DNA of 62,928 nt, filler included, from Octopus bimaculoides (lineage: Eukaryota), in the NCBI RefSeq assembly GCF_001194135.2. It is 7 parts of 7 records of this genome, joined end to end, with 100 filler letters (N's around TTAATTAATTAA, not from the genome) between each part and the next. Parts side by side here need not be neighbours in the genome. Positions count along the whole stretch, not along the records: positions 6,715 to 26,035 come from NC_068990.1; positions 26,136 to 32,572 come from NC_068985.1; positions 32,673 to 45,305 come from NC_068982.1; positions 45,406 to 55,881 come from NC_068989.1; positions 55,982 to 61,238 come from NC_068991.1; positions 61,339 to 62,928 come from NC_068981.1; 1 more part is not named here. One strand, 5' to 3'. Below the pieces are notes generated by a model. That model was not told the origin of the DNA. It saw nothing but the letters and a program-made list of their open reading frames with translations, and made no database searches. This document shows, piece after piece, positions 8,822-62,865 of the stretch. Position 1 is the stretch's first letter. The number at the start of each line of letters is the position of its first letter. Both the position numbers and the translations under genes were made by a program.

Positions 8822-9215
8822 CTCTATTATTATTAAAGCTGCAAAAAAGCTACTCAGAGTTTGACATTCCCGTTCGTCGGACAGTTCAGATTGATATATA
8901 TCTATGTCTATTATATTTTATATGTATATTATATTTATGTATATCATAATACATATTTTATGTATATTATATATATGTATATGTATANNNNNNNNNNTAT
9001 ATATACACATACATACATACATACATATATATATATATATATATATATACTCTATTATTATTAAAGCTGCAAAAAAGCTACTCAGAGTTTGACATTCCCG
9101 TTCGTCGGACAGTTCAGATTGATATATATCTATGTCTATTATATTTTATATGTATATTATATTTATGTATATCATAATACATATTTTATGTATATTATAT
9201 ATATGTATATGTATA
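8822..9215. repeat. Identical ~166-bp direct duplication spanning a 10-N gap
   Basis: 8822-8987 equals 9050-9215. Confidence 0.9.
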
Positions 9216-9237
9216 TTATAATATATATTTTATATGT

Positions 9238-9390
9238 GAGTTGGCAGAATCGTTAGCATGCTGGTCTAAATGATCAGCGACATTTCGTCTGTCATTATGT
9301 TCAAATTCTGCCGAGGTCGACTTTGCCTTTCATCTTTTCAACGGTGATGCTCCAGCATGATCGCAGCCGCACGGCTGAAACGAATAGAAA
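9238..9390 (+). mobile_element. SINE-B 5' part fused to a CR1-like 3' tail
   Basis: SINE-B head followed directly by GGTGATGCTCCAGCATGATCGCAGCC..GGCTGAAACGAATAGAAAAA. Confidence 0.7.
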
Positions 9391-10824
9391 AAATATACAT
9401 ATTATATATGTATTATATTACATGTATATTTCATATATGTTATACATATACATATTATGTTTATATATATATATATATATGTATATGTGTATATATTACA
9501 ATATATAGTATTACATATACTATATATATTATATTATATTGTATTAAATATATGTGTGTGTGTGTGTATTACATATATACCACACACAAAGAAACAGATA
9601 TTTATTACATGCACACACATATATGCACGCATTCACATACACATATATCATATGGTGAGCTGAAATATAAGAGCACAGGGAAGATAAATAACGATTCTGA
9701 TTACGGAAGAAAAAAAAGGTTAAAGAAATAAAAAAAATGTCACATTTGGTTTAAATACCATAAATAAAAGTTAAAGTAATTAAAGAAATATTATTTTAAG
9801 TTGCTTATTAGCTGACAATGCATGACATGTTCACAATAACAACACATTTTAATTACTGACATTATATATAGGCGGAGAAAAAATATTTTATTCTATATAT
9901 TAAATAAAACAATGATCCCTACCCCCATCCATACACACACACAAAAGACAATTTATTAAAGTTTTCTTATATCTATATTTCTCTGACATTATTTTCTTAG
10001 TTTCTAATATAAATAGAAATAAAGATATACGTCCCTTTTTCGCTTTGTGTGCGTGGGGGGCGAGGTGCATACACACACATACATGAATACATGATGGCTG
10101 CTACTCGATTTCGAATCATGCCATTGCTTGATTGTTTCTCTTGAACATGAGCAGCATAGATGTTGTCATTGTGTTCTGCCTCCTGTAGGTGTTTAGACAG
10201 GGTACCAACCACGACGAGATATGCCTTACTTCCATCATGCCTGTTTTGGTTATGGCCAGCCATAGCATTCAACGCATAACAGAGATATTAAAAATGAAAC
10301 TAGAAGCTTTTTACTGTGCAGAAAGGCCTTGCACAAGGTCAATCCTACTCTCTAAGCAACATATACATTAATCCGAGAAGAGCTAGACAATATCAGTGGA
10401 TGCAAAAGAAGTCGCAGGTGTTACATAAGCTTTCCTTCTCCGAAACAGTTGTCAAAACAAAGGCTAAAGGTCTCTCACTCACAGCTTTTGGAGAGCTATT
10501 GACTCTACTGAGTTCATCCGCTTTTTGATAGTTTTTTCGTCCAGCGCAAACCACCTTCCTCACCAAGCAGGCTTGGTAAGATAACCAGTTAAGTTGCCGA
10601 CAGCCCGACCATGCAACAGGTTGTACTGAGTTACATACTCTCAGTAGTACTAAGTGTGATCTGACTTAATATACATACGTACATACATACGTGTGTGTGT
10701 ACAGTATACACATACATGCATATATAAACATATAATATGTATAACCAAAAAAAAAATGGTAATAATATATACGTATATATATAATGTATGTATATTACAT
10801 ATATGTGTATTTATGTGCATATAT

Positions 10825-11160
10825 ACAAAGGGAATTCCAGAAGATTTGGGGATATTTCAAAGTGCAAAAACTCTAACTCCTTCAAAGTAACATCCTCTAA
10901 CTACAGTGCACTCGTAGCGTTTCAACCACTTCGCTAAGGCCCCATAGAAGTCCTCCAAAGTGAAAGTGTCCAGTACCCTTGTCACAGCCTCTTTCATCGC
11001 CAAAACGACTGTCCCTGAGGTTTTCTTTCGGCTTGTGGAGCAAAAAAAAGTCACAGGGAGTAAGATCTGGATTGTAGGGAAGGTAAGGGACAGTTCTTCA
11101 AGTAGTTGGTTACCAGGATACACGTCATTAAACACCCTGGAAGGTTGCTGACGCCCTGGG
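10825..11160 (-). mobile_element. mariner transposase 3' fragment
   Basis: MKEAVTRVLDTFTLEDFYGALAKWLKRYECTVVRGCYFEG is a mariner C-terminus. It is preceded by a frameshifted YNPDL.PCDFF block. Confidence 0.8.
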
Positions 11161-11327
11161 CAAGCTAGATTTCTGCGTATTTACAGATATAATGTTTTAA
11201 AATTTCACTGGGATGAAAGCAGCAAAAGTAGAAATAATGTGTTTACTGCAAAATTTAAGATAGAGAGAAAAGTTCAAACACAATGTTAAAAGTACAAAAT
11301 CTTTTGTTAATATAACTAGGAGAGAGA

Positions 11328-11439
11328 AAGAAGAAGAAGAAGAAGAAGAAGAAGAAGAAGAAGAAGAAGAAGAAGAAGAAGAAGAAGAAGAAGAAGAAGA
11401 AGAAGAAGAAGAAGAAGAAGAAGAAGAAGAAGAAGAAGA
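11328..11439. repeat. Perfect (GAA)n microsatellite
   Basis: About 37 uninterrupted units. Confidence 0.98.
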
Positions 11440-11519
11440 GAGCTTATGCTTTCAACACATTTTTGCTAGAAAAACTGTGGAGGATATATGGTTGAATGTA
11501 TGATTAGTGTCGTTGACCT

Positions 11520-61034: not shown

Positions 61035-61148
61035 TACGACGCAGTAAATATTTTCTGCAGATATATTCCTGGAATTAGCGCGCCAAAACGAAGACTTTTG
61101 AATTTTACCATTAAGCTGTAATTAGCAAAACCATATACACGCGCACCC

Positions 61149-61227
61149 ATGGCGGTGGGCAACTCTGTATACGATTCTGATGATTGTGGTTACATTACAA
61201 ATCAGGCTGAAGAGGAATGGACAAATG
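61149..61227 (+). CDS. Candidate first coding exon MAVGNSVYDSDDCGYITNQAEEEWTN(G)
   Basis: GCACCCATGG start context in locally GC-richer DNA, upstream in-frame TAA, 26 open codons and a donor ATG|GTAAGA. No homology recognised. Confidence 0.45.
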
Positions 61228-61338
61228 GTAAGATTTGTNNNNNNNNNNNNNNNNNNNNNNNNNNNNNNNNNNNNNNNNNNNNTTAATTAATTAANNNNNN
61301 NNNNNNNNNNNNNNNNNNNNNNNNNNNNNNNNNNNNNN

Positions 61339-61800
61339 AAAAAGTGCCACACCCTAACAGTTGAGGGAACCCGTGGAAGAGGTAGGCCCAGGAAGACCTG
61401 GGCTGAGGTGGTGAGGCAAGACCTTCGAACATTGGGCCTCACCGAGGCGATGACTACTGACCGAGACCTTTGGAAATGTGCTGTGCGTGAGAAGACCCGG
61501 CAAACCAAGTGAGATCGTTGCCAGTGCCCCTGGACTGGCTCTTGTGCGGGTGACACATAAAAGACACCATTTCGAGTGTGGCCGTTGCCAGTACTGCCTG
61601 ACTGGCCTTCATGCGGGTGACACATAGAAACATCCACTACACTCACTGAGTGGTTGGCGTTAGGAAGGGCATCCAGCTGTAGAAACTCTGCCAAATAAGA
61701 TTGGAGCCTGGTGTTGCCAACCGGTTTCACCAGTCCTCAGTCAAATCGTCCAACCCATGCTAGCATGGAAAGCGAACGATGATGATGATGATGATGATAC
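61339..61800 (+). mobile_element. RTE LINE 3' end (ORF C-terminus, 3' UTR, (GAT)n)
   Basis: KCHTLTVEGTRGRGRPRKTWAEVVRQDLRTLGLTEAMTTDRDLWKCAVREKTRQTK*. Confidence 0.92.
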
Positions 61801-62569
61801 ATACACACATCCAATCAGCACAAGTGAGGTTGTCATGGAGCTTGTAAGATTACAAACCCTGAAGAAGAAGCTTTATACTAGGAGATGAAAATGGAAAAGT
61901 CTAAGAGAAGCGGCCAAAACAGAAAAGGTTTCTTGCAGTAAAGACGTTACATGACCACTCACATTTTAGAAGAAAGGACGAGAATAATTGGATGGAGCTG
62001 GAAAGAGGTAAAAATGGTGGTGATGAGGTGTCTGGGTAGAGGTGAATGGGATAGAGGGATCAAGGGTGTGGGTGAGTGGAGGTTGCAAGAGAGTATGAGG
62101 GAGTGAGAGATGGGGAATCAGTGAGGGGGGGAAGGTAGGCAACAACTGTAAAGACTGGGTCAGTTTGAAAGGTAGATGTAGTGATTGGCGGATAACTAAT
62201 GATGCAGGTGTTACAGGAAGTAGGGTAGGGGGCAGCAGGAGATAACAGTGCAAAGCAGCAGGACTGTAATGATGATAAAGTGGACAGAAGAAGGACAAGA
62301 GAGGGATGGCATGTAGTTGGGTAAGTTACAGGAACACGTGGTAGTGGGGAGGGAGACAGGCATAGGGCACAAGAAGAATGAGAGACATGGTGAGAGAGAA
62401 ACAGAGTTGTGAGATAATTTGGTGGCTCAATGGGAGCAGTGATCAATAAAAGTGTGGGTAAAGAGAATGGTATTAATGGAAGAAAGATAGCTAACAAGTG
62501 AAATGATTCTGGGTAGTAAGAAAAGTAAGTGGTGTCAAGGAAGAGTTGCAGTTAGAGAGATCATCGTCA

Positions 62570-62720
62570 TCGTCGTCGTTTAACGTCCGCTTTCCATGCT
62601 AGCATGGGTTGGACGATTTGCCTGAGGTCTGGTGAAACCAGATGGCTACACCAGGCTCCAATCTAATTTGGCAGAGTTTCTACAGCTGGATGCCCTTCCC
62701 AACGCCAACCACTCCGAGAT
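62570..62720 (-). mobile_element. RTE 3' UTR fragment inverted relative to 61640-61800
   Basis: CGCTTTCCATGCTAGCATGGGTTGGACGATTT...GGCAGAGTTTCTACAGCTGGATGCCCTTCC.AACGCCAACCACTC. Confidence 0.9.
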
Positions 62721-62817
62721 GTTCATATATATATATGGATCTACAAATACAATATCCCTACATTCACTCTCTATTTCTTATCTTATCTAAACTATTGCTT
62801 AACCATCCCCTCACACC

Positions 62818-62865
62818 GTCTCCGATGAAGGGATATAATAAATATCCTGGAAACAGCTGTAAGAC
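62818..62865 (+). ncRNA. Penelope-type minimal type-I hammerhead (C4 variant)
   Basis: GTCT-CCGATGA-A-GGGATAT[AATAA]ATATCCT-G-GAAAC-AGCT-GT-A-AGAC. It has a 4-bp stem I, a 7-bp stem II, palindromic ACAGCTGT and a GUA triplet; it is preceded by a pyrimidine-rich tract. Confidence 0.75.

What the first reader, a model, noticed from the sequence alone, without database searches (positions are those of the whole stretch)
8849..62865. Window-wide enrichment of minimal hammerhead-ribozyme-like motifs, four of them in ~330-345-bp direct-repeat units (retrozyme-like system)
Seen: about a dozen motifs parse as stem I - YUGANRA - stem II - (G/A)AAA - short, often palindromic stem III - UH - stem I', at 8.85, 9.08, 19.08, 20.40, 20.74, 46.98, 47.32, 50.66, 52.92, 54.55, 60.7/60.83 and 62.82 kb. 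Four loci with largely unrelated sequence have near-identical repeat periods (337, 341-345, 328 and 344 bp). Known: minimal type-I hammerheads with palindromic stem III act as dimers in Penelope-like elements, and in metazoan non-LTR retrozymes that are transcribed as tandem repeats and processed to small circular RNAs. Inference: this genome hosts several distinct, non-coding, ribozyme-bearing retrozyme or pseudo-LTR families that ordinary repeat annotation would leave as unknown. I cannot tell whether they have been described in octopus.
Basis: partly seen in the sequence, partly recalled or inferred. Interest (0 to 1): 0.8.

Follow-up and report, generated by a model that had tools for sequence, protein, structure and literature searches.

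The report
Decayed Penelope-type hammerheads and mini-elements
The window holds several worn hammerhead-ribozyme-shaped motifs, likely left by Penelope-like jumping genes, and three of them sit in old ~340-base partial tandem repeats that likely were short 'retrozyme'-type mini-elements, which is a known kind of element.

Summary
Partly confirmed. Strong hammerhead parses beat local shuffles (4 vs 0.16, 0 of 300; descriptor written after seeing the motifs). Of 13 claimed sites, 4 pass both per-site tests, 8 pass at least one and 5 pass neither. Nearly all carry core mutations. Three unrelated units (345, 329, 344 nt) are 1.3-1.8 head-to-tail copies, 72-80% identical, with the motif ~180-215 nt before the 3' end. 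The fourth period (337) is composite: it contains (TA)n and a piece of another family. The 47-kb unit has relatives elsewhere in the genome and is shared with a related organism. Two RNA runs show no read-end pile-up there. Best reading: fossil PLE ends plus short non-autonomous PLE derivatives. An octopus PLE hammerhead is already in print (PMC8557442, File S2). The scan reported similar PLE debris in other genomes.

The parts
13124..13177 (-).
   Evidence: score 25 and 28; stem III form as in Hydra PLE hammerheads listed in PMC8557442 File S2
13325..13540 (-). Frameshifted coding remnant resembling the C-terminal end of the Hydra-clade PLE GIY-YIG endonuclease; starts at (TA)n 13,540-13,592 (likely a 5'-truncated insertion) and ends ~150 nt upstream of the hammerhead
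   Evidence: three-frame translations compared by eye with the printed alignment; three ordered motifs occur once in the window and in 0 of 150 shuffles (post hoc); no database hit
46810..47406 (-). Unit A: 345-nt period, about 1.8 head-to-tail copies, 72.5% identical over 262 columns, non-coding, GC 0.40; ends approximate
   Evidence: relatives elsewhere in the genome and a 96%-identical piece in organism B
46977..47015 (-). Hammerhead A1: 6-bp stem I, U3-G8, G12 changed to A (a CpG-type change), decayed palindromic stem III; H17 at 46,983
   Evidence: score 25; 0 of 60 and 0 of 100 local shuffles
47322..47364 (-). Hammerhead A2, homologous to A1 and more decayed; H17 at 47,328
   Evidence: 2 of 60 and 8 of 100; alignment
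52678..53120 (+). Unit B: 329-nt period, about 1.3 copies, 76% identical over 113 columns; the upstream copy is 5'-truncated at the end of a SINE-like repeat
52913..52963 (+). Hammerhead B: 9-bp stem I, U3-G8, two core mismatches, palindromic stem III
   Evidence: 1 of 60 and 0 of 100; 0 of 200 shuffles of the unit
54267..54775 (+). Unit C: 344-nt period, about 1.5 copies, 80% identical over 160 columns, between (TACA)n and (TA)n plus an assembly gap
54543..54583 (+). Hammerhead C: intact 5' core, stem II and GAAA; stem III and stem I decayed
   Evidence: 12 of 60 and 2 of 100; 12 of 200 shuffles of the unit: weak
50658..50695 (-). Solo minimal hammerhead (A6 changed to U) of a multi-copy family; 3' part runs into a gap
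   Evidence: 2 of 60 and 1 of 100; second copy at 20,539-20,594
20539..20594 (-). Truncated copy of the 50.66-kb family, starting inside the hammerhead's 3' half, between two TA runs, within the claimed 337-bp unit
   Evidence: 79% over 56 nt; sequence
20718..20761 (-). 44-nt Hydra-type hammerhead-like block, copy 1 (U3-A8, U16.1 changed to C)
   Evidence: 4 of 60 and 8 of 100 for the site, best parses differ; 91% to copy 2
20381..20424 (-). 44-nt Hydra-type hammerhead-like block, copy 2, just behind (TA)30
   Evidence: 48 of 60 but 1 of 100 with descriptor 2
60768..60884 (+). Hammerhead with a complete core and a long stem II, followed by ~40 nt and (TA)n
   Evidence: 0 core mismatches, 0 of 60; no parse under descriptor 2
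60633..60739 (-). Inverted, 5'-truncated copy of the same end, lacking the 5' half of the core: the PLE-type inverted structure
   Evidence: 85% over 100 columns
62818..62865 (+). Hydra-type hammerhead (U4 changed to C, 7-bp stem II, palindromic stem III), ~80 nt behind a TA run
   Evidence: 0 of 60 and 0 of 100
19070..19328 (+). Two or three very decayed minimal-hammerhead remnants around a TA/TAGA run (19,080; ~19,210-19,245; 19,292)
   Evidence: 19,080 not above chance (20 of 60, 46 of 100); 19,292 at 7 of 100; middle one by eye only
8797..9215 (-). 228-nt exact duplicate across a 10-N gap, carrying a doubtful motif (Hydra-like stem III, two core mismatches, 2-bp stem I); possibly an assembly overlap
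   Evidence: 191 of 191 identical; not above chance

Best explanation
The motifs are worn type-I hammerhead-shaped sequences, likely left by old insertions of several Penelope-like retroelement (PLE) lineages. Most are likely the 3' ends of 5'-truncated PLE copies, often at (TA)n, one with an inverted partner and one with a coding remnant. The three 329-345-nt units are likely short non-autonomous PLE derivatives of the non-LTR retrozyme type. Their source transcripts would have been cut by the hammerhead into ~340-nt monomers, perhaps circularised. A PLE reverse transcriptase/endonuclease would have copied them in trans from the 3' end for more than one round, leaving one whole unit preceded by a 5'-truncated copy. 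The copies here have since decayed and are predicted to be inactive. Shown: motifs, periods, partial-tandem and inverted anatomy, decay, relatives of unit A elsewhere in the genome. Inferred: PLE origin, cleavage, circularisation, mobilisation in trans.
For: Excess of strong parses over shuffles. Motif form matches the published PLE min-HHR consensus: extra base after A9, U3-A8/U3-G8 cores, palindromic helix III, opposite-strand pairs 100-700 bp apart (PMC4209133). It also matches the Hydra-clade form. Partial tandems, an inverted truncated copy and TA targets are the published PLE insertion pattern (PMC8557442; seen). 13,173 lies ~150 nt behind a Hydra-like endonuclease remnant on the same strand. 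Three unrelated units share period and motif position, within published retrozyme sizes: mussel 350-390, axolotl 330/350, group means 313-363 for insects, amphibians, coral and shark. At 47 kb, summed DNA-contig depth is 1,217 and 649 at the two 3' ends, 85-117 over hammerhead A1, the body and one more bin, and 14 over A2. Seven repeat-free flank bins have 6-21, so relatives exist and 3' ends dominate (not a copy number). Per-copy divergence of JC ~0.12-0.17 (half of the values) is near the PLE wave at JC 0.2 reported for O. vulgaris.
Against: No Rfam hammerhead hit. No database search tied any remnant to a PLE protein (all blank for PLE). The Hydra link rests on an eye comparison and on regular expressions written afterwards. 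5 of 13 claimed sites pass neither test, and the zero-mismatch counts are not above chance. No compensatory base-pair change was seen between homologous copies; changes are one-sided or break pairs (by eye). The units do not fold better than shuffles as circles (z -0.5, -0.3, -1.8), whereas published retrozyme circles are highly self-paired. A 343-offset duplication without a hammerhead exists. A 3'-heavy depth gradient fits truncated full-length PLEs equally well.
Confidence: 0.7

Rival explanations
1. All of it is truncation debris of autonomous PLEs. Units A-C are chance partial tandems of two 5'-truncated copies made afresh at each insertion, and no ~340-nt element was ever amplified as a unit.
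For: 3' ends are about ten times deeper than the body at 47 kb. No array of two or more full copies. One of four claimed periods is composite, and a fifth ~343 duplication has no motif. PLEs are known to leave partial tandems.
Against: Three unrelated units fall within 16 nt of each other in period, with the motif at a similar distance from the 3' end, which random truncation would not predict. No coding remnant was recognised in the units: by eye in the printouts; Pfam was not run on them.
Confidence: 0.35
2. The window samples live retrozyme families that are transcribed from tandem arrays and give abundant ~340-nt circular RNAs today.
For: Unit size and GC fit retrozymes. Unit A relatives exist in the genome, and their 3' part appears in RNA reads (depth 85 and 50 summed over both directions). 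O. vulgaris has 31 recently active PLE families.
Against: In two RNA runs (about 6% of each read) the hammerhead and body bins have depth 0-4. No place where many molecules begin or end was listed, and no unit-length go-back joint is among the 15 joints shown (968 not shown). RNA/DNA ratios for the unit (0-0.07) are no higher than for neighbouring repeats (0.01-0.13). The local copies are 20-28% apart and core-mutated. Caveat: cDNA libraries can lose small circles, the tissue is unknown, only unit A was tested, and family members under 80% alike are invisible.
Confidence: 0.08
3. The motifs are chance parses in AT-rich repeat debris, and the periods are unrelated local duplications.
For: About half of the loose parses are expected in shuffles. 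5 of 13 sites are at chance level. No Rfam hit. Descriptors are post hoc.
Against: Strong parses exceed all shuffles under two descriptors. Motifs recur at homologous places in duplicated copies and sit where PLE hammerheads sit, for example behind the Hydra-like remnant.
Confidence: 0.07

Closest known systems
Minimal hammerheads (min-HHR) in the pseudo-LTRs of metazoan Penelope-like elements (Cervera & De la Pena 2014, PMC4209133)
   Same: Type-I layout, extra base after A9, U3 cores, loopless or short palindromic helix III, mostly single dispersed motifs, opposite-strand pairs ~100 bp apart. Fits 47.0, 47.36, 50.69, 52.92 and 19.29 kb.
   Different: No flanking PLE ORF was found for these. 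The copies carry core mutations. No cephalopod in the supplement part I saw (molluscs there: Lottia, Crassostrea).
Hydra-clade PLEs, including Hydra-1_Obim of Octopus bimaculoides with its listed HHR (Craig et al. 2021, PMC8557442)
   Same: 4-bp stem III with 0-3-nt loop, extra base before GAA, (TA)n targets, short 3' tail, inverted 5'-truncated partner. Fits 13.17, 62.82, 60.7/60.8 and 20.4/20.76 kb; the 13.3-13.5-kb remnant resembles their endonuclease end (CxxC and CxH around the conserved E and N).
   Different: The window's motifs differ in sequence from the listed Hydra-1_oBim HHR, and six short window words had no match in that supplement (line breaks and decay weaken this). So these are likely other families. 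No RT domain is present.
Non-LTR retrozymes of animals (Cervera & De la Pena 2020, PMC7229834; Li, Clavereau & Pollet 2026, bioRxiv 10.64898/2026.07.22.740005)
   Same: Non-coding head-to-tail units of 329-345 nt, GC 0.38-0.40, one type-I hammerhead per unit, no LTR/PBS/PPT seen, in a genome that holds PLE-like debris.
   Different: Only 1.3-1.8 decayed copies. No two consecutive complete hammerheads (Li et al.'s criterion for 'active'). Helix III is min-HHR-like. No excess circular folding and no RNA evidence.

Membership tests
Type-I hammerhead ribozyme | Conserved core CUGANGA / GAAA / UH | tested here: inconclusive
   One parse with no mismatch under descriptor 1 (60,774; 71 of 300 shuffles reach 1); the other strong motifs have 1-2 mismatches
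Type-I hammerhead ribozyme | Three-helix junction closed by stem I | tested here: met
   Stem I of 4-9 bp and stem II of 4-8 bp at 13.17, 47.0, 52.92, 60.77 and 62.82 kb; strong parses exceed shuffles
Type-I hammerhead ribozyme | Covariation of stems within a family | tested here: inconclusive
   Only two-copy comparisons; changes are one-sided or break pairs (by eye)
Type-I hammerhead ribozyme | Score to an Rfam hammerhead model | tested here: not met
   No hammerhead row (150 of 247 rows seen), 34 or 35; whether Rfam models cover minimal PLE variants was not checked
Type-I hammerhead ribozyme | Self-cleavage | not testable with these tools
   Needs an in vitro assay
Penelope-like element ends (min-HHR and Hydra clade) | Hammerhead just downstream of the RT/GIY-YIG ORF | tested here: inconclusive
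   Hydra-like endonuclease end upstream of 13,173 by motif match; no database confirmation; nothing found upstream of 19.08 kb, 20.76 kb or 60.8/62.8 kb
Penelope-like element ends (min-HHR and Hydra clade) | 5'-truncated partial tandems and inverted truncated partner | tested here: met
   Units A-C; inverted pair at 60,633-60,884
Penelope-like element ends (min-HHR and Hydra clade) | Insertion at (TA)n or related microsatellites | tested here: inconclusive
   Ends within 16 nt of such a run at 20,593, 54,267, 54,770, 60,882 and 62,735 (5 of 14 positions checked, some of them motif starts and not ends), plus 13,540; not at units A and B; no null was computed and the window is rich in microsatellites
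Non-LTR retrozyme | Non-coding tandem unit of 150-450 bp, GC <50%, one type-I hammerhead per unit | tested here: met
   345, 329 and 344 nt; GC 0.38-0.40; the motif in unit C is weak
Non-LTR retrozyme | [quoted passage not shown] | tested here: not met
   Only unit A has two motifs, both mutated; B and C show one
Non-LTR retrozyme | Multi-copy family amplified as the whole unit | tested here: inconclusive
   Unit A relatives exist but 3' ends dominate; no whole genome held; B and C untested
Non-LTR retrozyme | Abundant unit-length linear or circular RNA, highly self-paired | tested here: inconclusive
   No pile-up of ends and depth 0-4 over the motifs in two cDNA runs; circular fold z -0.3 to -1.8; the library type may lose small circles
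Non-LTR retrozyme | Long target-site duplication, when present | tested here: inconclusive
   None >=7 nt at four of five loci; only microsatellite words at unit C; the copies are old

The most novel reading that the evidence does not exclude
Units A, B and C are three independent cephalopod non-LTR retrozyme (mini-PLE) families that converged on a ~340-nt monomer. Each was copied for more than one round from a circular RNA by PLE enzymes, and younger members elsewhere in the genome may still give circular RNA. My searches showed no paper describing such units in cephalopods.
Probability: 0.3. Interest if true: 0.5.

Novelty: new member of a known kind. Interest (0 to 1): 0.3.

Why it matters
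If right, it extends retrozyme-type mini-elements to cephalopods. It would also give three separate cases of one unit size and one 'whole unit plus 5'-truncated copy' anatomy, which is what more-than-unit reverse transcription of a circular RNA predicts. That would support the proposal that retrozymes are non-autonomous PLEs. It also shows that short 'unknown' repeats in these genomes can be classified by their hammerheads. It is not a new class of RNA or element, and the copies in this window are fossils.

Tried and rejected
No whole genome was held, so there are no copy counts or consensus. A strict first scan found one parse. The repeat finder was swamped by microsatellites and N runs. Rfam gave no hammerhead. 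An exact 22-nt pattern from the 50.66-kb motif had 0 matches in metagenome contigs. No RNA holder was listed for 46,830-47,400 (no evidence either way). A suspected likeness between units A and B was rejected (z<4; alignment). A suspected PLE endonuclease remnant at 17.4-18.8 kb was not supported: Pfam 0, word search 0, phmmer over 1.84 billion proteins 0. Pfam on 60.3-62.9 kb gave 0 in six frames. Searches with two single frames of the 13.3-13.5-kb remnant found nothing (41-50-residue queries, weak). Six short window words were absent from the Craig 2021 supplement. The 337-bp period was rejected as a unit, and 8.85/9.08 as two motifs. ARAGORN found no tRNA. Minimum-free-energy folds of single motifs mostly did not give the hammerhead fold. 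Lunse et al. (PMC5785218) was not held. The supplement of PMC7229834 was too large to read and file 1 of PMC4209133 was not searched; the bioRxiv supplements were not seen. Any of these may list cephalopod hammerheads or retrozymes.

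
Full report
SETTING. The window is AT-rich, microsatellite-rich eukaryotic DNA with 3,910 N in 24 runs. It is full of dispersed repeats and has no long clean ORF. No genome was held.

ARE THE MOTIFS THERE? I scanned both strands with a scored type-I hammerhead descriptor and compared with 300 local dinucleotide shuffles of the repeat-masked window. 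Allowing one core mismatch gave 15 parses against 7.6 (4 of 300 shuffles reach it), and 4 against 0.16 at score >=24 (0 of 300). With no mismatch there is 1 against 0.3 (71 of 300). With up to two mismatches there are 23 against 13 at score >=14 (0 of 60) and 9 against 5.3 at >=17 (6 of 60). After reading the Hydra-clade hammerheads I wrote a second descriptor (200 shuffles). With one mismatch it gave 15 against 8.8 at >=10 (5 of 200), 3 against 1.06 at >=18 (17 of 200) and 3 against 0.36 at >=21 (0 of 200); with none, 2 against 0.64 (26 of 200). Both descriptors are post hoc. The masked copy used for these counts drops the 50.69-kb motif. The enrichment is real but modest and comes from a handful of strong motifs.

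SITE BY SITE. Of 13 claimed sites, 46.98, 50.66, 52.92 and 62.82 pass both per-site tests. 47.32 and 60.83 pass only the first, and 20.40 and 54.55 only the second. 8.85, 9.08, 19.08, 20.74 and 60.7 pass neither. These tests are optimistic because the sites were chosen for looking like hammerheads. 20.74 and 60.7 are copies of passing motifs. 8.85 and 9.08 are one sequence, identical over 191 nt across a 10-N gap. Except for 60,774, every strong motif has one or two core changes (G12A, U4C, A6U, A9). U4C is a natural variant that lowers activity (PMC3088659, passage). Rfam gave no hammerhead row.

THE PERIODS. Self-comparison confirms offsets of 337, 341, 329 and 344, and shows 22 same-strand local matches under 1 kb, five of them at 329-344. 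Unit A (47 kb, minus) is about 1.8 copies, 72.5% identical, with 345 nt between the two predicted cut sites. Unit B (52.9 kb) is about 1.3 copies at 76%, and unit C (54.5 kb) about 1.5 copies at 80%. In each, a whole unit is preceded by a copy that lacks its 5' part, and the motif lies about 180-215 nt before the 3' end. The three are unrelated in sequence. The best parse in each unit is matched by 0, 1, 0 and 12 of 200 shuffles (A1, A2, B, C). The 337 case is different. Only the 44-nt motif block is repeated, and the spacer holds two TA runs and a fragment of the 50.66-kb family, so its period is incidental. The fifth offset, 343 at 2.3 kb, has no motif.

THE MOTIFS OUTSIDE UNITS. At 60.6-60.9 kb a full motif is followed by ~40 nt and (TA)n. 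It is faced by an inverted copy that begins inside stem II (85% identical). At 62.82 kb the motif lies ~80 nt behind a TA run. Upstream on the same strand, starting at the TA run at 13,540, three frames hold pieces that read WKILSKCRPYIN, CSVYSLEK and INSR in order. They line up by eye with the end of the Hydra-clade PLE endonuclease printed in the supplement of PMC8557442. The ordered trio occurs once in the window and in 0 of 150 shuffles, but the patterns were written after seeing it. Two database searches with single frames found nothing. This is the only coding link to a PLE in the window, and it is suggestive, not proven. A similar hunch for 17.4-18.8 kb failed three searches.

READS. 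One lay was allowed; I used 46,020-48,760 at 80% likeness. In DNA contigs of the same organism (X4, possibly the source of the window), summed depth is 6-21 in seven repeat-free flank bins and 38-87 in five other flank bins. It is 1,217 and 649 over the 3' ends of the two copies of unit A, 99 over hammerhead A1, 85 over the body, 117 in the next bin and 14 over A2. The tool warns that this is not a copy number. It shows only that relatives exist and that 3' ends dominate. A contig of organism B covers 47,035-47,410 with 14 differences in 376, like a flank piece (31 in 753). So the insertion likely predates the split and has drifted at the flank's rate. In two cDNA runs (about 6% of each read) the 3'-end bin of the first copy has depth 85 and 50, split between both directions. 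The motif and body bins have 0-4, and repeat-free flanks about 0. No place where many molecules begin or end was listed, and none of the 15 joints shown (968 hidden; SINE reads swamp the tables) is a unit-length return. RNA/DNA ratios are no higher than for neighbouring repeats. This gives no support for an abundant retrozyme RNA. It is a weak test: one unit, unknown tissue, and libraries that may lose small circles.

HOW IT LIKELY WORKED. Established for the families (papers below): PLEs carry hammerheads near their 3' end, insert as 5'-truncated, partial-tandem or inverted copies, and some clades target (TA)n. Minimal hammerheads need dimers and cut slowly. Retrozymes are short non-coding hammerhead repeats expressed as circles and proposed to be non-autonomous PLEs. 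Inferred here: the solo and inverted motifs are PLE ends. Units A-C came from ~340-nt hammerhead-delimited RNAs that PLE enzymes copied from the 3' end past one full round. All have since decayed: half the copy-to-copy distance is JC 0.12-0.17, near the PLE wave at JC 0.2 in O. vulgaris. The main rival is that A-C are chance tandems of truncated full-length PLEs. The shared period argues against it and the 3'-heavy depth fits it; only genome-wide junction counts can decide. The units do not fold better than shuffles as circles.

WHAT IS KNOWN, AND WHAT I SAW. PMC4209133: parts 1-2 of 4 of the text, a supplement search and supplement file 2 part 2. PMC7229834: passages and sections 13-14; supplement unreadable. 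bioRxiv 10.64898/2026.07.22.740005: parts 1-3 of 5. PMC8557442: passages, sections 6 and 11, supplement parts 2 and 58 and searches; its File S2 lists a hammerhead in Hydra-1_oBim from Octopus bimaculoides. PMC13282606, PMC8967140, PMC6765202 and PMC3088659: passages; the first two cover cephalopod PLEs, and 'ribozyme' does not occur in their main text. Lunse et al. was seen only as cited. Searches for octopus or cephalopod with hammerhead, retrozyme or ribozyme (listings only for most hits) showed no description of cephalopod retrozyme units; unseen supplements and subscription papers may hold one. Earlier notes of this scan describe similar PLE debris in other genomes and nothing for this genome or these sequences.

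VERDICT. A real but ordinary fossil record of hammerhead-bearing PLEs, with three candidate retrozyme-type mini-elements. It works like PLE ends and non-LTR retrozymes. Membership in 'active retrozyme' is not met for these copies. New member of a known kind; interest 0.3.

Noticed in passing
window 60,904-61,033: A near-perfect 30-nt terminal inverted repeat around an AT-rich core, set in (TA)n right behind the 60.8-kb hammerhead element; MITE-like or another inverted PLE tail. The Rfam miRNA hits there are below gathering score.
   Followed up: no
window 11,450-12,560 (+): Decayed LINE-type reverse transcriptase; Pfam RVT_1 E 4e-5, below the curated cut-off.
   Followed up: partly
window 21,900-24,100 (+): Long frameshifted coding remnant that looks by eye like an L1/Tx1-type LINE (label recalled); Pfam gave 0 families.
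   Followed up: partly
window 14,269-15,177; 44,300-45,000; 57,500-58,700: Tc1/mariner-like transposase remnants, by eye from the printed translations (labels recalled); the first has 200-nt inverted repeats at 82%.
   Followed up: no
window 49,986-50,400 and 31,185-31,452 (-): Two copies of a LINE-like 3' coding end (label by eye).
   Followed up: no
window 46,449-46,790 (-) and 52,334-52,676 (+): Copies of a very abundant SINE-like repeat with a tRNA-like head (76% alike; ARAGORN calls no tRNA). Each touches a hammerhead unit (A and B); probably chance, given its abundance.
   Followed up: partly
window 1,824-2,221; 4,400-4,808; 41,092-42,842; 47,492-47,694 and others: About 19 copies of one SINE-like family, often in ~200-225-bp head-to-tail pairs, with extreme DNA and RNA depth at 47.5-47.7 kb.
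   Followed up: no
window 2,285-2,978 (+): Two-copy duplication with offsets 343/377 (a poly-A expansion between), 76% identical, with no hammerhead parse.
   Followed up: partly
window 17,400-19,080 (+): Faint resemblance by eye to a PLE coding end followed by a pyrimidine-rich tail upstream of the 19.08-kb motif; three searches found nothing.
   Followed up: yes
window 61,890-62,550: 650-nt purine-rich stretch between two copies of an inverted SINE-like repeat (61,648-61,777 / 62,585-62,714, 94%); unexplained, Pfam 0.
   Followed up: partly
window, eight places such as 6,615-6,714 and 61,239-61,338: Paired 44-N runs with the same short spacer between them: scaffold joins, so distances across them are unreliable.
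   Followed up: no
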